Below are positions 13,667-20,566 of a DNA stretch of 64,000 bases, in pieces (position 1 is the first letter of the stretch; each line of letters begins with the position of its first letter). Both the position numbers and the translations under genes were made by a program. Source of the DNA: Escherichia coli (GTDB lineage: Bacteria > Pseudomonadota > Gammaproteobacteria > Enterobacterales > Enterobacteriaceae); the NCBI RefSeq assembly GCF_045037415.1, contig NZ_CP173438.1; one strand, given 5' to 3'. The notes below the pieces were generated by a model. That model saw only the letters and a list, made by a program, of their open reading frames with translations. It was not told where the DNA came from and searched no databases.

Positions 13667-14944
13667 ATGAAAACCAAAGTTGCTGCTATTTATGGCAAGC
13701 GGGATGTCCGTCTGCGCGAATTTGAACTGCCAGAAATTACTGATAATGAACTGTTAGTGAGTGTAATTTCTGACAGCGTTTGTTTATCCACCTGGAAAGC
13801 GGCGTTGCTTGGTAGTGAACATAAACGCGTCCCCGACGATTTAGAAAATCATCCGGTTATTACCGGGCATGAATGTGCTGGGGTTGTTGTCGAAGTGGGT
13901 AAAAATCTCACTGGCAAATATAAAAAAGGGCAGCGTTTTGTATTGCAACCGGCGATGGGGCTACCAAGCGGATATTCAGCCGGATACAGCTACGAATATT
14001 TTGGTGGCAATGCCACCTATATGATTATTCCCGAAATCGCGATTAATTTAGGCTGTGTATTACCGTATCACGGCTCTTATTTTGCTGCGGCGTCGCTGGC
14101 AGAGCCTATGTGCTGCATTATTGGTGCTTATCATGCCAATTATCACACCACGCAATATGTTTATGAGCATCGTATGGGCGTCAAACCTGGCGGCAATATT
14201 GCCCTGCTGGCGTGTGCTGGCCCGATGGGCATTGGCGCTATCGATTACGCCATTAACGGCGGCATACAACCGGCGCGGGTGGTGGTAGTCGATATCGACG
14301 ACAAACGGCTGGCGCAGGTGCAGAAGTTGCTGCCGGTGGAGCTGGCGGCCAGTAAAGGCATTGAGCTGGTGTATATGAATACCAAAGGGATGAGCGATCC
14401 GGTCCAGACGCTGCGGGCGCTGACGGATGATGCCGGATTTGATGACGTATTTGTCTATGCAGCGGTGCCTTCAGTCGTCGAGATGGCTGATGAATTACTG
14501 GCTGAAGATGGCTGCCTGAACTTCTTTGCCGGTCCGACGGATAAAAACTTCAAAGTGCCGTTTAATTTCTACAACGTCCATTACAACAGTACGCACATTG
14601 TCGGCACGTCTGGCGGTTCCACGGACGACATGAAAGAGGCGATTGCCCTTAGCGCCACGGGGCAGTTACAGCCGTCGTTTATGGTGACCCATATTGGTGG
14701 CCTGGATGCGGTGCCAGAAACCGTGCTCAATCTGCCGGATATCCCTGGCGGTAAAAAACTCATTTATAACGGCGTGACCATGCCGCTGACCGCCATTGCC
14801 GATTTTGCCGAAAAAGGCAAAACCGATCCGCTGTTTAAAGAGCTGGCGCGGCTGGTTGAGAAAACGCACGGTATCTGGAATGAACAGGCCGAGAAATATC
14901 TGCTGGCACAATTTGGCGTTGATATTGGGGAGGCCGCGCAATGA
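13667..14944 (+). CDS. yggP: Zn-dependent alcohol/polyol dehydrogenase-like protein
   Basis: 425 aa; MDR-family motifs (GHECAG; GAGPMGIGAI). Confidence 0.88.
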   Translation: MKTKVAAIYGKRDVRLREFELPEITDNELLVSVISDSVCLSTWKAALLGSEHKRVPDDLENHPVITGHECAGVVVEVGKNLTGKYKKGQRFVLQPAMGLPSGYSAGYSYEYFGGNATYMIIPEIAINLGCVLPYHGSYFAAASLAEPMCCIIGAYHANYHTTQYVYEHRMGVKPGGNIALLACAGPMGIGAIDYAINGGIQPARVVVVDIDDKRLAQVQKLLPVELAASKGIELVYMNTKGMSDPVQTLRALTDDAGFDDVFVYAAVPSVVEMADELLAEDGCLNFFAGPTDKNFKVPFNFYNVHYNSTHIVGTSGGSTDDMKEAIALSATGQLQPSFMVTHIGGLDAVPETVLNLPDIPGGKKLIYNGVTMPLTAIADFAEKGKTDPLFKELARLVEKTHGIWNEQAEKYLLAQFGVDIGEAAQ

Positions 14945-15906
14945 TGTCCCTGGCGTGGCCATTATTTCGCGTTACGGAACAGGCAGCGTTGGCTGCCTGG
15001 CCGCAAACCGGCTGTGGCGACAAAAATAAAATTGATGGCCTTGCGGTCACCGCGATGCGCCAGGCATTAAACGACGTTGCTTTTCGTGGGCGAGTGGTTA
15101 TCGGCGAGGGGGAAATTGACCATGCGCCGATGCTGTGGATTGGCGAAGAGGTGGGCAAAGGCGATGGGCCAGAAGTCGATATCGCGGTCGATCCCATTGA
15201 AGGCACGCGGATGGTGGCGATGGGGCAGAGCAATGCGCTGGCGGTCATGGCTTTCGCCCCTCGAGATAGCCTGTTACATGCGCCCGATATGTATATGAAA
15301 AAGCTGGTTGTTAATCGACTGGCTGCCGGGGCGATAGATCTGTCTTTGCCTCTGGCGGACAACTTGCGTAACGTGGCGCGGGCGTTAGGTAAACCGCTGG
15401 ACAAGCTGCGCATGGTTACGCTGGATAAACCGCGCCTGAGTGCCGCAATTGAGGAAGCAACACAGCTCGGCGTGAAGGTTTTTGCCCTGCCGGATGGCGA
15501 TGTCGCCGCCAGCGTGCTGACTTGCTGGCAGGATAATCCTTACGATGTGATGTACACCATCGGTGGCGCACCGGAAGGTGTTATTTCTGCCTGTGCCGTT
15601 AAAGCATTAGGCGGGGATATGCAGGCCGAGCTGATTGACTTTTGTCAGGCTAAAGGGGATTACACGGAAAATCGGCAGATTGCAGAGCAGGAGCGCAAGC
15701 GTTGCAAGGCAATGGGCGTTGACGTTAACCGTGTATACTCGCTCGATGAACTGGTGAGGGGGAACGATATCCTCTTTAGCGCTACGGGCGTGACGGGCGG
15801 CGAGTTGGTGAACGGTATCCAACAGACGGCGAATGGGGTGCGGACGCAGACATTACTGATCGGCGGCGCGGACCAAACGTGTAATATAATAGACTCCCTG
15901 CATTGA
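14941..15906 (+). CDS. yggF: Class II (GlpX-type) fructose-1,6-bisphosphatase
   Basis: 321 aa; overlaps the yggP stop; GlpX-like DPIEGT motif. Confidence 0.9.
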   Translation: MMSLAWPLFRVTEQAALAAWPQTGCGDKNKIDGLAVTAMRQALNDVAFRGRVVIGEGEIDHAPMLWIGEEVGKGDGPEVDIAVDPIEGTRMVAMGQSNALAVMAFAPRDSLLHAPDMYMKKLVVNRLAAGAIDLSLPLADNLRNVARALGKPLDKLRMVTLDKPRLSAAIEEATQLGVKVFALPDGDVAASVLTCWQDNPYDVMYTIGGAPEGVISACAVKALGGDMQAELIDFCQAKGDYTENRQIAEQERKRCKAMGVDVNRVYSLDELVRGNDILFSATGVTGGELVNGIQQTANGVRTQTLLIGGADQTCNIIDSLH

Positions 15907-15927
15907 TGGTGATCTATCGGAAGACCA

Positions 15928-16437
15928 ATGGCGACGCTGACAGAAGATGATGTGCTTGAGCAACTGAATGCACAGGACAATTTATTTTCATTTATGAAAA
16001 CTGCGCATTCTATTTTGCTCCAGGGGATACGCCAGTTTCTGCCGTCGCTGTTTGTCGATAACGATGAAGAGATCGTCGAATATGCAGTGAAGCCGTTACT
16101 CGCCCAAAGCGGCCCGCTTGACGATATTGATGTTGCGCTGCGTTTGATTTATGCGCTGGGGAAAATGGATAAATGGCTGTACGCCGATATCACGCATTTT
16201 TCCCAGTTTTGGCATTACCTGAACGAACAGGATGAAACGCCCAGATTTGCTGATGACATAACCTGGGATTTTATCAGCAACGTCAATAGCATAACCCGCA
16301 ATGCGACGCTCTATGACGCGTTGAAAGCGATGAAGTTCGCCGATTTCGCCGTCTGGTCAGAGGCGCGTTTTAGCGGGATGGTCAAAACGGCGCTGACGCT
16401 GGCAGTAACGACCACCTTAAAGGAATTAACGCCGTGA
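15928..16437 (+). CDS. yggD: MtlR-like putative transcriptional regulator
   Basis: 169 aa, MATLTEDDVLEQLNAQDNLFSFMKTAHSILLQG. Confidence 0.85.
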   Translation: MATLTEDDVLEQLNAQDNLFSFMKTAHSILLQGIRQFLPSLFVDNDEEIVEYAVKPLLAQSGPLDDIDVALRLIYALGKMDKWLYADITHFSQFWHYLNEQDETPRFADDITWDFISNVNSITRNATLYDALKAMKFADFAVWSEARFSGMVKTALTLAVTTTLKELTP

Positions 16438-17147
16438 AAATCGAACTGACGGTGAATGGACTAAAGGTACAGGCGCAGTACTCTGATGATGAAATTGAAA
16501 ATGTACATAAACCATTGCTGCGTATGCTGGCGGCCTTACAGACAGTAAATCCGCAGCGGCGTACGGTGGTTTTTCTTTGCGCTCCGCCGGGGACGGGTAA
16601 ATCTACCCTAACCACCTTCTGGGAATATCTCGCGCAACAAGACCCGGAACTGCCCGCTATTCAGACGCTGCCGATGGATGGTTTTCACCAGTACAATAGC
16701 TGGCTGGATGTGCATCAATTGCGACCCTTCAAAGGCGCACCAGAGACATTCAACGTTGCGAAACTGGCGGAAAATCTGTGCCGGGTTGTGGAAGGGGATT
16801 GTACGTGGCCGCAGTACGATCGACAAAAGCATGATCCTGTTGAAGATGTGTTGCACGTTACCGCACCACTCGTCATCGTCGAAGGAAACTGGTTGTTGTT
16901 GGACGACGAGAAGTGGTGCCAGCTTGCGCAATTTTGTGATTTCTCGATCTTTATCAAAGCTCCCGCATCTGCGTTGCGGGAGCGTCTGGTGGGGCGCAAG
17001 CTGGCGGGAGGGTTATCGCTGGCAGACGCAGAAGCCTTTTATGACCGTACCGACGGGCCGAATGTTCGCCGGGTGCTGGAAGAGAGTCTGCCTGCAAATT
17101 TGACCTTAATGATGACCGCTACGGGTGAATATCGTCTGATGGATTAA
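16434..17147 (+). CDS. yggC: P-loop kinase-like protein
   Basis: 237 aa; Walker A GTGKST; overlaps the yggD stop. Confidence 0.88.
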   Translation: MKIELTVNGLKVQAQYSDDEIENVHKPLLRMLAALQTVNPQRRTVVFLCAPPGTGKSTLTTFWEYLAQQDPELPAIQTLPMDGFHQYNSWLDVHQLRPFKGAPETFNVAKLAENLCRVVEGDCTWPQYDRQKHDPVEDVLHVTAPLVIVEGNWLLLDDEKWCQLAQFCDFSIFIKAPASALRERLVGRKLAGGLSLADAEAFYDRTDGPNVRRVLEESLPANLTLMMTATGEYRLMD

Positions 17148-17829
17148 CGTTCCTGATTACACCATCTTCCAGTCGCACCACACGAGAGAAATGACGCCGG
17201 GTAAATGCGGCGTCATGACTGATTGCTACGACGCTCGTGCCTCGCTGGCGGCACTTTTCCAGCCAGCTTTCAAACACGCTCAACCAATTTTCGTCAAAAT
17301 CCCGACTCGGCTCGTCCAGTAGCAATAGTGGCGGAGAGAGTGCTTCCAGGCAGGCGACGGCGACCATCCGTCGCTGCGCACTATGCAGATCTAACGGATG
17401 CGCGCTGGCAGTGTCTGCTAACTGACAGCATTGCAGGGCAGCATTGGTACGTTGAGTGATTTCATCCGCCGGGCATTTTTGCAGTATCAAACCAAATGCG
17501 ATTTCGTCAGCAACGGTGCTGTGAAAAAGCTGATTTTCCGCTTCCTGAAACAGTACGCCAATCTTTGCCGCGCGCTGGCGGTTTTTCAGGTTTTTCATCG
17601 CTTGTTGTTGCAGCATAACCGTACCGGCTGTGGGCGTAAGAAGACCTGCCATTACTCGTAACAGCGTCGATTTTCCCGCGCCATTGTCGCCGGTCAGCGC
17701 CAGCCATTCACCTTGTTTGAGTTGCAGAGAAATGTCGCAAAGACAATCCGTAGCCGCGCCAGGCCAGCGATAAGATATCTGATTTAACGTTAACATAGTG
17801 GCTGGAGCGCTCCGTTTTGCAATTGCCAC
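17119..17829 (-). CDS. ABC-type ATPase, second subunit (A'), with a degenerate signature motif
   Basis: Walker A GDNGAGKST; Walker B LLLLDEP; signature position reads LHSAQRRM instead of LSGGQ; H-loop ISHD. Confidence 0.8.
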   Translation of the reverse strand: MAIAKRSAPATMLTLNQISYRWPGAATDCLCDISLQLKQGEWLALTGDNGAGKSTLLRVMAGLLTPTAGTVMLQQQAMKNLKNRQRAAKIGVLFQEAENQLFHSTVADEIAFGLILQKCPADEITQRTNAALQCCQLADTASAHPLDLHSAQRRMVAVACLEALSPPLLLLDEPSRDFDENWLSVFESWLEKCRQRGTSVVAISHDAAFTRRHFSRVVRLEDGVIRNVNPSDDIHP

Positions 17830-18473
17830 GCTTGCTGGCAGTGGTTCAGGAAAGGTGTGTGATGACGTTCAAAAAGAATAATCAGCGAACCACGTTCAAG
17901 CGCCCAGTGTTGTAAGCGCTGCAACAGCATTTCGCGGGCCTGCGGCGTCAGGCGGCTAAAGGCTTCATCAAGAATTAAGAGCTTTGGCTGCATCGCGATG
18001 GCGCAGGCGATGACCACACGCTGTGTCTCTCCACCGGAGAGTGTTGCCGGGTGACGATGGCGCAACGGCTGGCACTCGGTCAGGGCCAGGGCGGCGTCAA
18101 TCCGCGCCATAATCTCTTTTTCAGCAAGACACAGATTTTCTGGCCCAAAGGCAACTTCTTCTTCCACGCTAAAGGTACAGCCGGAGAGCTGCAAATAGGG
18201 CGATTGCTGGACGAGCTGGATGGTGGCGGATTGTTCATTAAGCGGGAGACGCCCAATGGGCGTACCGAGAAGCGTCCCCGTGCCGGTTATCTCTCCTGGT
18301 AGAAAGTCCGGATACCAGCCCGCCATCAGCTGTGCCAGCGTACTTTTGCCACTGCCGTTGTCACCAAAGATGGCGACCATCCCCGGTTTGACATAGTGAA
18401 AGTCATAACAGAACGGAGGATGCGTTGAGTGTGTCGGGCAATAGCGAAACTGTTCTAACGTAACCATATCCAC
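17790..18473 (-). CDS. ABC-type ATPase (A), canonical motifs
   Basis: Walker A GDNGSGKST; signature LSGGETQR; Walker B LLILDEA; overlaps the downstream A' gene by 40 bp. Confidence 0.82.
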   Translation of the reverse strand: MDMVTLEQFRYCPTHSTHPPFCYDFHYVKPGMVAIFGDNGSGKSTLAQLMAGWYPDFLPGEITGTGTLLGTPIGRLPLNEQSATIQLVQQSPYLQLSGCTFSVEEEVAFGPENLCLAEKEIMARIDAALALTECQPLRHRHPATLSGGETQRVVIACAIAMQPKLLILDEAFSRLTPQAREMLLQRLQHWALERGSLIILFERHHTPFLNHCQQAWQLQNGALQPLC

Positions 18474-19162
18474 GCTCCGAATTCAGCCAGCATTAGCAAT
18501 ATCATGGCGTAACGTGCTACGCATTGTAGGGTGCTATCGGCTGGTGCCCATAACGTAGTGCGCCTATTGTTGATTCGAAATGCCCGCATATCCAGCGCCG
18601 CACCACGGACAGCAAGATCGTTTAGCGCATTGTGTGTTAGCGGAATAATTAACGCGGGCATCGCACGTAAACGCTGATACCAGCCCTCATCCAGCGGCAC
18701 GCCGCGGGCGCACTGCGCTTCATGAATAATCGCCAATTGCCGTTTTAACTGCTCAACGACCAATAACGGCCCGGCAAACAGATAAGCGACGCCCGGCGGC
18801 AGGCGAGAAGCAAACAAAGCGCGGATAAAACGTTGCACGGGGACGTACTGCATCCACAACTGTGAGGTTGAAACAATCGCCAGAATCCGCAACCAGAGCG
18901 TAATAGCATGCGCCCACCGTTCTGGAGAGTGTGGCGTGCCGCTTAGCCATTCTGTCAGCCAGCCACCGTGCACCAGCCACAGTCCAGCCCCCAGCGAGAA
19001 CATCAGCCAGACGACATATTTTGCCCGCCGCCGCGTGGCCTTTAGCGCAATAAGGCAGAAAAAGGTCGCCGCGCTATAGACTGGCAATATTGTCTGTGTA
19101 GGCAGGATAAGCGTGGTGCAGGCCGCCAGCGCCCACAGCGTTAAGGATGTAAAAGGATGCAT
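18455..19162 (-). CDS. ECF-transporter transmembrane T component (CbiQ/EcfT-like)
   Basis: 235-aa polytopic protein with the characteristic C-terminal A-x-x-ARG motif (AQCARGV); overlaps the ATPase gene by 19 bp. Confidence 0.65.
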   Translation of the reverse strand: MHPFTSLTLWALAACTTLILPTQTILPVYSAATFFCLIALKATRRRAKYVVWLMFSLGAGLWLVHGGWLTEWLSGTPHSPERWAHAITLWLRILAIVSTSQLWMQYVPVQRFIRALFASRLPPGVAYLFAGPLLVVEQLKRQLAIIHEAQCARGVPLDEGWYQRLRAMPALIIPLTHNALNDLAVRGAALDMRAFRINNRRTTLWAPADSTLQCVARYAMILLMLAEFGAWIWLR

Positions 19163-19741
19163 TTAGCGCACGGCAGCCATTGCCGGAAAATGGCGCGTGG
19201 TGCGAATCGGCAGCTGACGCAGTAAAAGCCAGACTATCACCGCTGTAAGAATTTTATCGACCAGGTTCGCGCCTATCACCGTAATCGCCACCGACTCCAC
19301 CAGGTTTTGCCCCATCGAGTGCATCCAGGCAACGAACAAATCGGCTCCGCTTCCTGTCACGCCGCCGAACAGCGCAGTACGCAGCGGTACAGCGACGACC
19401 GTTACCGCAAGCGTAATAATCACGCCGCTAACAACGACTTTTGGCAGGGTGCGAAACCAACCCGCTCGCGCCAGCCAACCGGCGACCAGGCCGATGACCA
19501 TCGCGACGGGCGCAAATGCGGCGGCGATCGGGTCGGTCAGCAATCCCCAGAGTAAATTGGTCAGTAAACCGGTCAGCATCCCGATTATCGGACCAAGCAG
19601 TACCGCGCTAATAAGTGTGCCGATGGAGTCGAGAAAAATAGGTAATTTAACCATGCTGGCCAGTTGCCCGCCGATCATATTGATGGCGATAGAGATAACG
19701 ATCAACACCAGTGCCTGACTGGAAAAGTGGCGACGCGCCAT
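19163..19741 (-). CDS. Small integral membrane protein, candidate ECF substrate-specific (S) component
   Basis: About 192 aa with roughly 5-6 TM helices; motifs FLDSIGT and VLLGPIIG typical of S components. Start taken at MARRHF (ATG 19741) with GAGAGG RBS; the track ORF starts further upstream at 19840. Confidence 0.6.
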   Translation of the reverse strand: MARRHFSSQALVLIVISIAINMIGGQLASMVKLPIFLDSIGTLISAVLLGPIIGMLTGLLTNLLWGLLTDPIAAAFAPVAMVIGLVAGWLARAGWFRTLPKVVVSGVIITLAVTVVAVPLRTALFGGVTGSGADLFVAWMHSMGQNLVESVAITVIGANLVDKILTAVIVWLLLRQLPIRTTRHFPAMAAVR

Positions 19742-19763
19742 AAGAAAACCTCTCTGAAAATAG

Positions 19764-20195
19764 TTATTTAACGGGGGAAATATGCAACTCGTCGTAACCA
19801 GAAAGCGCGCAAAGCTGGCGGCTAAACGCCAGTTCCTCAAGGCAGCCGATCACCAGTTCAAGCGTGGTCCGCACGGTACAGCCGGGCATCATATGACCGC
19901 CAAGCATCGTGCCGTGTGGATCGGAAACGCAGAGATGAAGATGTTCACCACTCTGTTCCAGCGTGCCGTTCAATGCGATGACTTCGAACTTACCGCTTAG
20001 CAGGGCAGTGTTTTCTTGCCCGGCATAGCGTAAGGCGACGTCAGTCAGACTGCCGGTACAACCTGCAATCCACGCGGCGTGAAGTTGTTGTTGCTGCGCG
20101 AAGGCGCGTAATTGGGAGAGAACTTCCTGCCCGGGGAGCAGGCGCAGCGCGTAAAAGCGTGCGGAGGAAGAATATGGGTAGGGCAATGTCATCAT
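19764..20195 (-). CDS. PPC/DUF296-domain protein, first gene of the cluster
   Basis: 143 aa, MMTLPYPYSSSARFYALRLLPGQEV...GKFEVIALNGTL...HLHLCVSD; 22 bp upstream of the S-component gene. Confidence 0.6.
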   Translation of the reverse strand: MMTLPYPYSSSARFYALRLLPGQEVLSQLRAFAQQQQLHAAWIAGCTGSLTDVALRYAGQENTALLSGKFEVIALNGTLEQSGEHLHLCVSDPHGTMLGGHMMPGCTVRTTLELVIGCLEELAFSRQLCALSGYDELHISPVK

Positions 20196-20429
20196 TGGAG
20201 TACTCCGAAACTCGGACGTATTGCGGATAATATCGACGCTGCATCAGTCATATTCTGATATAAGTCAGGGTTTGTGACCGCACAACGAAAAGATATTGCT
20301 ACGCTTATTCGTGATTCTGCAAAGTGGAATAAATTCCACAGGGGCGGGGATGAAAACGTGACATAAGTCAGATAATTGTCTTCTTTGACTGGACAAACAT
20401 TCCTTTTATTCCACGTTTCGCTTATCCTA

Positions 20430-20444
20430 GCTGAAGCGTTTCAG
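20430..20444. promoter_or_regulatory. Candidate Cra (FruR) operator upstream of epd
   Basis: gctgaagcgtttcag matches the Cra consensus GCTGAAnCGnTTCAG, about 120 bp upstream of the epd start. Confidence 0.5.
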
Positions 20445-20566
20445 TCGATTAAATGTTCGACAATTAACCAATCAGTCGCAGTTTGCGACAGGTAAGGTTT
20501 CCCCGAACGATTTGCTGGATTACTCTGTCTGGCAAATTTGCTCAGGGAAAACCTTGCAGGAGATCT

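What the first reader, a model, noticed from the sequence alone, without database searches (positions are those of the whole stretch)
17119..20195. GC-rich five-gene cluster between yggC and epd: PPC/DUF296 protein plus a complete ECF-type transporter
Five tightly packed minus-strand genes (22 bp gap, then overlaps of 2, 19 and 40 bp) encode a PPC/DUF296 protein, a small membrane protein with S-component hallmarks (FLDSIGT, VLLGPIIG), a CbiQ-like T component (ARG motif) and two separate ABC ATPases. As I recall the K-12 map, yggC and epd are adjacent (b2928 and b2927), so this block looks like an insertion. It is also compositionally distinct, about 57% GC in a sampled stretch against a genome average near 51%. 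ECF transporters are uncommon in Enterobacteriaceae, and pairing one with a PPC-domain gene is not a combination I recognise. The substrate cannot be inferred, and I found no TPP, FMN or cobalamin riboswitch-like leader by eye.
Basis: partly seen in the sequence, partly recalled or inferred. Interest (0 to 1): 0.72.

Follow-up and report, generated by a model that had tools for sequence, protein, structure and literature searches.

The report
Orphan ECF importer with PPC partner
Many E. coli strains, but not K-12, keep an old, already-annotated five-gene operon for an ATP-driven micronutrient importer plus a small metal-site protein; its cargo is unknown, and related gene neighbourhoods point weakly to modified, possibly sulfur- or selenium-bearing, nucleosides.

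Summary
The five minus-strand genes exist as described: PPC/DUF296 protein, ECF S component, CbiQ-type T component and two ABC ATPases, between yggC and epd. The "insertion" reading is wrong. The block sits at this site in most Enterobacteriaceae genera sampled. It has no island hallmarks and is only slightly GC-richer (0.55 against 0.51). It is present in 3319 of 5426 complete E. coli genomes. The K-12 haplotype (2096 genomes) has no remnant of the block and carries a foreign-looking yggC 3' end, so K-12 lost it by allelic replacement.

RefSeq already annotates the genes. The Salmonella orthologue (STM3071-75) has been called a putative, anaerobically induced five-gene "Co2+" ECF operon, and its PPC protein has a solved structure (2HX0).

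New here:
- PPC-S-T-A-A is a strictly conserved module across several phyla.
- The S component is vitamin-type, not CbiM, so cobalt is unlikely.
- The PPC protein has an acetolactate-decarboxylase-like fold, an invariant His triad and no DNA-binding motif.
- A conserved FNR-like class II promoter fits the reported anaerobic induction.
- Distant contexts recur with nucleoside hydrolases and with sulfur/selenium-trafficking genes.

Verdict: an ordinary dedicated ECF importer of an uncharacterised specificity family. It is moderately interesting as a conserved orphan operon in major pathogens.

The parts
19764..20195 (-). First cistron: 143-aa PPC/DUF296 protein. It has an ALDC-like fold and an invariant H85-x-H87...H101 triad. 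RefSeq calls it a 'PPC domain-containing DNA-binding protein'.
19163..19741 (-). ECF S (substrate-capture) component, 192 aa with the RefSeq start; the longest ORF runs to 19840.
18455..19162 (-). ECF T (scaffold) component, 235 aa, CbiQ family.
   Evidence: PF02361, E 4.7e-4. Coupling-helix motifs QCARGV (residue 152) and LAVRGA (residue 185). RefSeq name 'energy-coupling factor transporter transmembrane component T'.
17790..18467 (-). ABC ATPase A1, 225 aa. Walker A GDNGSGKS, signature LSGGE, Walker B LLILDE. No canonical H-loop histidine.
   Evidence: NCBIfam ECF_ATPase_1, E 3.3e-36. Motif scan.
17119..17796 (-). ABC ATPase A2, 225 aa. Walker A GDNGAGKS, degenerate signature LHSAQ, Walker B LLLLDE, H-loop AISHD. 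Its 3' end overlaps the convergent yggC 3' end by 29 bp.
   Evidence: NCBIfam ECF_ATPase_2, E 6.4e-43. Motif scan. Coordinates.
20255..20268 (-). FNR-like box CTGACTTATATCAG (CTGATTTATATCAG in most genera). Its centre lies 41.5 nt upstream of the predicted transcription start at about 20220.
   Evidence: Conserved in the 17-taxon alignment of PPC upstream regions, which includes three Escherichia and three Citrobacter, and in Buttiauxella, where the module is not next to epd. No sigma-70 -35 was found by scan. The motif alone is not rare in the window. The Salmonella operon is reported as anaerobically activated (PMC11481890).
20227..20232 (-). Predicted -10 hexamer TATTAT.
   Evidence: Conserved columns. 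The spacing to the FNR-like box fits a class II activator-dependent promoter; this is inference.
20204..20216 (-). Conserved palindrome TCCGA-GTT-TCGGA (TCCGAG-T-CTCGGA in other genera) just downstream of the predicted start. It overlaps the Shine-Dalgarno GGAG. It could be an operator or a small 5'UTR hairpin.
   Evidence: Nearly invariant across Enterobacteriaceae genera. The RNA hairpin folds at -6.5 kcal/mol with z -0.88, which is not significant by energy.
16898..20345 (.). Extent of the dimorphic segment relative to the K-12 haplotype: the last ~250 nt of yggC, all five genes and the PPC promoter.
   Evidence: Identity to K-12 falls from 95-100% to 62-67% at about 16900 and resumes at about 20346. 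3319 genomes carry this type and 2096 carry the K-12 type.

Best explanation
The block is an ancestral enterobacterial operon encoding a dedicated (group I) ECF-type ABC importer. A membrane S component captures a scarce small organic molecule. A CbiQ-type T component and an asymmetric ATPase heterodimer, with one consensus and one degenerate ATP site, drive uptake. These steps are inferred from homology.

The first cistron encodes a cytoplasmic PPC-domain protein that is an obligatory partner of this transporter family. It is most likely a His3-metal enzyme or ligand-handling protein acting on the imported compound, not a DNA-binding regulator. This rests on fold, invariant residues and gene order.

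In Enterobacteriaceae the operon appears to be transcribed from an FNR-type class II promoter, so it would be switched on anaerobically. This is a prediction that agrees with published Salmonella expression data.

The cargo is not cobalt. The best, still weak, guess is a modified pyrimidine nucleoside or base, possibly thiolated or selenated. This comes only from the neighbourhoods of related modules.

E. coli K-12 and about 39% of sequenced E. coli lack the operon because a short divergent allele replaced it.
For: Transporter identity:
- Pfam and NCBIfam hits for all four transporter subunits.
- T-component ARG and VRG motifs and the ATPase motifs.
- All subunits lie in one operon with 0-22 bp spacing or short overlaps.

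PPC partnership:
- PPC sits immediately 5' of S-T-A-A on the same strand in 79 of 80 species-representative loci; the 80th starts inside S. The taxa span Gamma-, Alpha- and Betaproteobacteria, Desulfobacterota, Synergistota, Spirochaetota and Chloroflexota.
- The same order holds in three further genomes.
- Most metagenome contigs long enough to judge also link PPC to an ECF module.

PPC nature:
- Solved orthologue 2HX0.
- H85, H87, H101, R18, R56, E71, E113 and R126 are invariant. No cysteine is invariant.
- The H-x-H...GGH pattern mirrors HEH...GGGH in Proteus BudA.

Regulation:
- Conserved TGAT-N4-ATCA box at -41.5 and a TATTAT -10.
- Salmonella operon reported as anaerobically activated (PMC11481890).

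Cargo hints:
- A sister S component (44% identity) is followed by a CD3072-family TudS-related desulfidase, 141 bits against a cut-off of 130.
- Another (41% identity) sits with GntR, a nucleoside hydrolase and a 5'-nucleotidase.
- In 17 metagenome loci, one or two Rih-type nucleoside hydrolase genes precede S-T-A-A, with the PPC gene convergent. A ribokinase gene also precedes them in 6 of the 17.
- A YedF C-domain/DsrE-like gene lies next to PPC in 11 loci (immediately upstream in most).
- YedE/YeeE-like genes occur in Morganella and alphaproteobacterial loci.
- Single or double cases: cysteine-desulfurase-like (2 loci), LysR_Se-like (1; 246 bits, cut-off 250), rhodanese (1).

Ancestry.
Against: - No substrate, transport or binding datum exists here.
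- The T-component Pfam hit is weak, E 4.7e-4.
- The sulfur/selenium and nucleoside neighbours are absent from every Enterobacterales, Aeromonas and several other contexts. Several of the positive loci are phylogenetically related.
- Sequence-profile comparison of PPC with an ALDC gave nothing. I could not inspect coordinates to show that the three histidines converge.
- The FNR-like box in E. coli has TGAC rather than TGAT. The motif alone is not rarer than chance in the window.
- A conserved palindrome between the promoter and the start codon would fit an autoregulatory DNA-binding role for the PPC protein, which a thesis explored (cited in PMC11481890).
- The enterobacterial ATPases lack the ~55-aa C-terminal extension of distant orthologues.
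Confidence: 0.55

Rival explanations
1. It is a cobalt (or nickel) ECF importer of the CbiMNQO/NikMNQO kind, with the PPC protein as its transcriptional regulator. This is the historical annotation and the hypothesis of the Salmonella STM3071 thesis.
For: The T and A subunits hit CbiQ and CbiO models. The literature calls the Salmonella operon 'suggested to import Co2+' (PMC11481890). RefSeq labels the PPC protein as DNA-binding. A conserved palindrome lies downstream of the promoter.
Confidence: 0.08
2. The PPC protein is a soluble ligand-binding or chaperone protein, or an autoregulator that senses the cargo, rather than an enzyme. It would be analogous to YkoF in the ykoFEDC thiamine-related ECF operon. 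The transporter would be as in the best explanation.
For: A small soluble protein inside a group I ECF operon has precedent (YkoF, PMC5037267). PPC proteins form oligomers in solved structures (from memory). A conserved palindrome sits at about +5 to +17. No catalytic activity is known for any PPC protein.
Against: An invariant His triad plus invariant Arg and Glu residues, and the ALDC/PTD012 fold relationship, look like a metal active site. Recurrent neighbours are enzymes and sulfur carriers, not regulators.
Confidence: 0.22
3. It is a recently acquired genomic island inserted between yggC and epd in pathogenic lineages.
For: It is absent from K-12 and 2096 other genomes. It is slightly higher in GC than the window mean.
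Against: It lies at the same site in many genera. There are no repeats, tRNA, integrase or IS. GC equals that of neighbouring core genes. The linked yggC 3' end is the native Escherichia type, whereas the K-12 one is the outlier.
Confidence: 0.03
4. It imports a conventional vitamin or cofactor precursor (folate, thiamine moiety, biotin, queuosine precursor and so on) that is already assigned to other S families.
For: A weak FolT-family hit, E 0.0028. The closest folds are FolT and ThiT.
Against: No equivalog-level NCBIfam hit. No riboswitch. The operon is not near any vitamin pathway genes in any of the ~170 loci inspected. All S components share the fold regardless of substrate.
Confidence: 0.1

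Closest known systems
Salmonella Typhimurium STM3071-STM3075 (PPC protein structures 2HX0 and 2NMU)
   Same: Orthologous five-gene operon at the same epd-adjacent site. The PPC protein is 78% identical. It is described as a putative five-gene ECF operon, conserved in pathogenic E. coli and anaerobically activated (PMC11481890).
   Different: Nothing functional separates them. The published 'Co2+' assignment and 'DNA-binding' label are not backed by the features tested here.
Group I (dedicated) ECF transporters with a soluble extra protein, e.g. B. subtilis YkoEDC plus YkoF
   Different: There is no THI-box or other riboswitch. There are two separate ATPase genes instead of a fused YkoD. The soluble partner is a PPC/ALDC-like fold, not the fold of YkoF. 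The substrate is unknown.
CD3073-family ECF S component with CD3072-family TudS-related desulfidase (NCBIfam NF045596 and NF045597)
   Same: This is the nearest named S family: 135 bits for the E. coli protein. A 44%-identical relative sits in an S-T-A-A operon followed by a TudS-related desulfidase. The logic is the same: importer plus one cytoplasmic processing protein.
   Different: The E. coli S scores below the family cut-off of 180. The partner is a PPC protein placed 5' of S, not a TudS-like Fe-S enzyme placed 3'. Neither system has been tested experimentally, as far as the searches show.
CbiMNQO / NikMNQO metal ECF transporters
   Same: Group I organisation; CbiQ-type T and CbiO-type ATPases.
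   Different: No CbiM/NikM-type S component, no CbiN, and no N-terminal metal-binding Met-His.
Alpha-acetolactate decarboxylase and PTD012 zinc fold
   Different: PPC is a single ~140-aa domain, half the size of ALDC. There is no detectable sequence-profile similarity. Metal binding and catalysis by this PPC subfamily are untested.

Membership tests
ECF transporter, group I (dedicated) | S component with the six-helix ECF S fold | tested here: met
ECF transporter, group I (dedicated) | T component (CbiQ/EcfT) with two X-R-G coupling-helix motifs | tested here: met
   PF02361, E 4.7e-4, which is weak. ARG at residues 152-154 and VRG at 185-187, 33 residues apart. Orthologues carry unmarked CbiQ hits.
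ECF transporter, group I (dedicated) | Two ABC ATPase domains with Walker A/B and signature motifs | tested here: met
   Best NCBIfam hits are ECF_ATPase_1 and ECF_ATPase_2, E 1e-36 to 1e-43, below the equivalog cut-offs. Motifs are present, and one composite site is degenerate: A2 signature LHSAQ with an A1 H-loop lacking the usual histidine.
ECF transporter, group I (dedicated) | All subunits encoded together in one operon | tested here: met
   The genes abut or overlap on one strand. The order is conserved in more than 80 loci.
ECF transporter, group I (dedicated) | ATP-dependent uptake of a specific substrate | not testable with these tools
   Needs uptake or binding assays.
CbiMNQO/NikMNQO cobalt/nickel ECF transporter | CbiM/NikM S component with N-terminal metal-coordinating Met-His, plus CbiN/NikN | tested here: not met
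NCBIfam NF045596 CD3073-family ECF S component | Score at or above the curated cut-off (180 bits) and an adjacent CD3072-type TudS-related desulfidase | tested here: not met
   135.3 bits. No TudS-like gene in the window block. It is a related but separate subfamily.
PPC / DUF296 domain family (PF03479) | PPC domain covering the protein; PPC fold | tested here: met
AT-hook / AHL-type DNA-binding proteins (source of the 'DNA-binding' label) | AT-hook (R-G-R-P) or another DNA-binding motif next to the PPC domain | tested here: not met
   The 143-aa protein is the PPC domain alone. There is no other Pfam domain and no RGRP in the sequence. All 120 top relatives are single-domain proteins of 130-157 aa.
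Alpha-acetolactate decarboxylase | ALDC sequence family membership with a His3 zinc site | tested here: inconclusive
Horizontally acquired genomic island | Flanking repeats or att sites, mobility genes, tRNA target, deviant composition, patchy synteny | tested here: not met
   No direct repeats at the borders. No mobility genes in the flanks. GC 0.55 against 0.51-0.56 in neighbouring genes. Same site in many genera.
Riboswitch-controlled vitamin ECF operon | Known riboswitch in the leader | tested here: not met
   The Rfam E-value scan of 16900-20800 found nothing relevant. The predicted 5'UTR is only about 25 nt.
FNR-activated class II promoter | TTGAT-N4-ATCAA-like box centred near -41.5; anaerobic, fnr-dependent expression | tested here: inconclusive
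   The box (C)TGA(T/C)-N4-ATCA(G) is conserved and lies 29 nt from a TATTAT -10. Anaerobic activation is reported for Salmonella. The transcription start and fnr dependence were not tested. The E. coli half-site is TGAC.

The most novel reading that the evidence does not exclude
The PPC-ECF module is a salvage or acquisition system for thiolated or selenated pyrimidine nucleosides or bases, for example 2-thiouridine, 4-thiouridine or 2-selenouridine released from tRNA turnover in anaerobic, gut-like habitats. The S component would import the compound. The PPC protein would be a new His3-metal desulfidase or deselenase, a non-Fe-S counterpart of TudS. It would release sulfur or selenium to DsrE/YedF-, YedE- or rhodanese-type carriers. 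This would give the first biochemical function for the prokaryotic PPC/DUF296 domain and a new route of selenium or sulfur scavenging.
Probability: 0.12. Interest if true: 0.8.

Novelty: new member of a known kind. Interest (0 to 1): 0.45.

Why it matters
E. coli K-12 is routinely treated as lacking ECF transporters. Yet most E. coli (including ST131, O157:H7 and O26), Salmonella, Citrobacter and the Klebsiella oxytoca group carry this conserved operon, which is probably FNR-controlled and has no known cargo.

Identifying the cargo would add a nutrient-acquisition function relevant to anaerobic gut growth. It would also give the first function to bacterial PPC/DUF296 proteins, which are currently mislabelled as DNA-binding, and would correct the propagated "cobalt transport" annotation.

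The clean two-allele polymorphism at yggC-epd also offers natural presence/absence strains for testing fitness effects.

Tried and rejected
- Rfam E-value scan of the whole block and leader: no riboswitch.
- Literature searches:
  - CD3073: one irrelevant paper.
  - DUF296 with ECF transporter: none.
  - DUF296/PPC: the 30 top-ranked of 191 papers were plant AHL or protease PPC-domain papers.
  - Selenium with ECF or YedF: nothing linking them to this module.
  - TudS with ECF: nothing.
  - The five RefSeq protein accessions: none.
- NCBIfam on the PPC and T proteins: no hits.
- PDB sequence search for S and T: no relatives.
A 3-sequence alignment worked.
- hhalign of the PPC profile against an ALDC sequence: no signal.
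- Search for PPC domain fusions: all 120 top relatives are single-domain.
- Remnants of the ECF genes in the K-12 intergenic region: none.
- Flanking repeats or att sites: none.
- Sigma-70 promoter scan upstream of PPC: none, which fits an activator-dependent promoter but proves nothing.
- 5'UTR hairpin energy: not significant.
- FNR-like motif frequency in the window: not below chance, so only conservation and position support it.
- The Salmonella intragenic sigma-54 site is degenerate in E. coli.
- Three extra genome contexts (Maridesulfovibrio and two metagenome-assembled genomes) confirmed the five-gene order but added no sulfur, selenium or nucleoside neighbours.

Full report
**1. What is in the sequence**

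Window 17119-20195 holds five minus-strand ORFs. RefSeq annotates them identically in an identical E. coli genome. In order they are:
- a PPC domain protein, 19764-20195;
- an ECF S component, 19163-19741;
- an ECF T component, 18455-19162;
- two ABC ATPases, 17790-18467 (A1) and 17119-17796 (A2).

Pfam confirms PF03479 (E 2.7e-27), PF12822 (E 2.4e-8) and, weakly, CbiQ (E 4.7e-4). In NCBIfam the best hits of both ATPases are ECF ATPase models, though both score below the equivalog cut-offs.

The T protein has ARG and VRG coupling motifs 33 residues apart. The ATPases form an asymmetric pair. A2 has a canonical Walker A, Walker B and H-loop but a degenerate signature, LHSAQ. A1 has a canonical LSGGE signature but lacks the usual H-loop histidine. 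The pair should therefore have one consensus and one degenerate ATP site.

The details need correcting:
- S and T abut rather than overlap by 2 bp.
- The 19 and 40 bp overlaps apply only to the longest ORFs. With the RefSeq starts they are 13 and 7 bp.
- The block averages 55.0% GC against 51.4% for the window. The core neighbour glpX is 56.3%.
- No Rfam family matches.

**2. Insertion or loss?**

Among 5426 complete E. coli genomes, 3319 carry the whole block. They include ST131, O157:H7, O26:H11 and UMN026. Another 2096 carry the K-12-type yggC-epd junction. Together these account for nearly all genomes, so this is a two-allele polymorphism.

The polymorphic segment is not bounded by the intergenic regions. 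Identity between this window and K-12 is 95-100% up to about 16897, inside yggC. It then drops to 62-67% for the last ~250 nt of yggC and recovers only at about 20346, upstream of epd. The K-12 allele holds no remnant of the ECF genes.

At protein level, the YggC C-terminus of this window is 96% identical to E. albertii and 90% to E. whittamii. The K-12 C-terminus is about 65% identical to every Escherichia allele and 48-65% identical to other genera.

The PPC-S-T-A-A block lies divergent from epd in 33 of 40 Enterobacteriaceae loci. The exceptions are truncated contigs and Buttiauxella. In 16 species-representative loci it is also convergent with yggC; these include Escherichia, Citrobacter, Salmonella diarizonae, Silvania, Superficieibacter and Phytobacter. 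The two Atlantibacter hermannii contigs show the same layout. There are no flanking repeats, tRNA, integrase or IS.

The block is therefore ancestral at this site. The K-12 haplotype is a short replacement allele of unknown, divergent origin. The "insertion" interpretation is not supported.

**3. Prior knowledge**

The Salmonella orthologue of the PPC protein was solved by structural genomics (2HX0 and 2NMU, "putative DNA-binding protein"). It scores E 4e-69 and is 78% identical.

[quoted passage not shown] A sigma-54 ChIP site was reported inside STM3072 (PMC3844500). That site is degenerate in this window.

So the existence of the operon is known, but its function is not. No paper in the library links DUF296 with ECF transporters.

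**4. The PPC-ECF pairing is a deeply conserved module**

A scan of one genome per species returned 80 loci. In 79 of them a PPC gene immediately precedes S-T-A-A on the same strand. The remaining locus starts inside S. The taxa include:
- Enterobacteriaceae, Morganellaceae, Budviciaceae and Aeromonas;
- Wohlfahrtiimonas, Rhizobium, Brucella and Betaproteobacteria;
- Desulforhopalus, Synergistaceae, Spirochaetaceae and Chloroflexota.

Three more genomes give the same order. Clustering of flanking ORFs found no sixth universally conserved gene. The five genes are therefore a self-contained unit.

Starting instead from distant PPC proteins in metagenomes, most contigs long enough to judge again carry an ECF module next to PPC. 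It appears either in the same order or as an S-T-A-A operon convergent on the PPC gene.

**5. What the PPC protein looks like**

Across 21-25 diverse members, the invariant residues are R18, P21, G48, S49, R56, E71, H85, H87, H101, T110, T111, E113, R126 and E136. No cysteine is invariant.

The pattern G-x-H-x-H...GGH parallels the HEH...GGGH stretch of a Proteus ALDC. In ALDCs that stretch supplies the three zinc ligands; this point is from memory of the ALDC literature and was not tested here. Profile comparison with ALDC is negative.

There is no AT-hook or second domain. I infer a His3-metal site and an enzymatic or ligand-handling role. The "DNA-binding" name is inherited from plant AT-hook proteins.

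**6. Regulation**

Aligning the region upstream of PPC from 17 enterobacterial taxa shows several conserved elements.
- A box CTGATTTATATCAG (E. coli CTGACTTATATCAG, 20268-20255) lies 29 nt from its centre to a conserved TATTAT (20232-20227). That places the centre at -41.5 from a start near 20220, which is the geometry of a class II FNR/CRP-family promoter.
- A nearly invariant palindrome TCCGAG-T-CTCGGA (20216-20204 in E. coli) overlaps the Shine-Dalgarno sequence.

Both elements travel with the module in Buttiauxella, where it is not next to epd. They are absent in Proteus, Providencia, Morganella and Aeromonas.

No sigma-70 -35 was detected. The motif alone is not rare in the window, and the hairpin is energetically unremarkable. 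The inference therefore rests on conservation, position and the published anaerobic induction.

**7. Cargo**

Cobalt is unlikely. There is no CbiM/NikM-type S component, no CbiN, and the S fold is vitamin-type.

The S family is nearest to the uncharacterised NCBIfam "CD3073 family", scoring 135 bits against a cut-off of 180. Relatives give recurring hints:
- A 44%-identical S component is followed by a CD3072-family TudS-related desulfidase, above cut-off.
- A 41%-identical one sits with GntR, an inosine-uridine-type nucleoside hydrolase and a 5'-nucleotidase.
- In 17 metagenome loci, one or two Rih-type pyrimidine nucleoside hydrolase genes precede S-T-A-A, with PPC convergent. A ribokinase gene also precedes them in 6 of the 17.

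The PPC subfamily is also repeatedly next to sulfur- or selenium-trafficking genes:
- A small YedF C-domain/DsrE-like CxxC protein lies next to PPC in 11 loci from Chloroflexota, Betaproteobacteria and others (immediately upstream in most).
- YedE/YeeE-like membrane proteins occur in Morganella and five alphaproteobacterial loci.
- Cysteine-desulfurase-like genes occur in two loci.
- A LysR regulator scores 246 bits against the 250-bit cut-off of the selenium-associated LysR model.
- A rhodanese occurs in one locus.

None of these neighbours occurs in the Enterobacterales or Aeromonas contexts, nor in three further genomes. Several of the positive loci are related to each other.

I therefore put the [quoted passage not shown] idea forward as the best available guess, not as a finding.

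**8. Verdict**

The evolutionary interpretation is reversed: the block is ancestral and has been lost from K-12-type strains.

The system is a group I ECF importer of an uncharacterised specificity family with a conserved PPC partner. It is already annotated and already mentioned in the Salmonella literature.

It is a new member of a known kind. Interest is moderate, because it is a widespread, probably FNR-controlled orphan operon in major enteric pathogens, and because the PPC domain has no known bacterial function.

Noticed in passing
window 16898-17147 (3' end of yggC): The last ~250 nt of yggC exist as two deeply diverged alleles in E. coli: 62-67% nucleotide and about 65% amino-acid identity. 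Each allele is strictly linked to presence or absence of the ECF block. The K-12 allele is the outlier relative to E. albertii and E. whittamii, and its donor is unknown.
   Followed up: partly
window 17119-18467 (A1 and A2): The two ATPases are complementary in their defects. A2 has a degenerate signature (LHSAQ) and A1 lacks the usual H-loop histidine, which predicts one catalytic and one degenerate ATP site. Both are 225 aa, about 55 aa shorter at the C-terminus than the Proteus and Rhizobium orthologues.
   Followed up: partly
window 17119-17147: The convergent genes A2 and yggC overlap by 29 bp at their 3' ends, with no room for a terminator between them.
   Followed up: no
window 20324-20339: A perfect palindrome GTGGAAT-TT-ATTCCAC lies about 130 nt upstream of the PPC start in E. 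coli and E. albertii. Other genera conserve only TTATTCCA. No regulator was assigned.
   Followed up: no
window 20357-20372: A CRP-like site TCTGA-N6-TCACG (TCACA in most genera) lies in the part of the intergenic region shared with K-12. It is conserved across genera and probably belongs to the epd-pgk-fbaA promoter side.
   Followed up: no
window 19308-19325 (+ strand, antisense to the S gene): This is the counterpart of the sigma-54 ChIP site reported inside Salmonella STM3072 (TGGCCCATTGAATGCATC). Here it reads TGCCCCATCGAGTGCATC and has lost the GG of the -24 element.
   Followed up: yes
L053 4568-7177 (Proteus vulgaris), just upstream of its PPC gene: In Proteus species the module lies directly downstream of budA (acetolactate decarboxylase) and alsS. 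ALDC is the nearest non-PPC structural relative of the PPC protein. This is probably coincidence.
   Followed up: no
L008 603-4940 (metagenome contig): One contig carries a PPC gene followed by three paralogous S-component genes and a fused double ATPase of 684 aa. L079 (Synergistaceae) has an 827-aa fused ATPase-containing protein after S. Subunit fusions and S-gene multiplication therefore occur in this family.
   Followed up: no
L010 9269-9739 (E. albertii NBRC 107761); L028 148-564 (Salmonella diarizonae): A1 in the E. albertii type strain and S in the S. diarizonae locus appear truncated. These may be pseudogenes or assembly errors.
   Followed up: no
window 13667-17147: Upstream of the block lies yggP-glpX(yggF)-fumE(yggD)-yggC, preceded by cmtA. 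yggP is intact here (425 aa).
   Followed up: no
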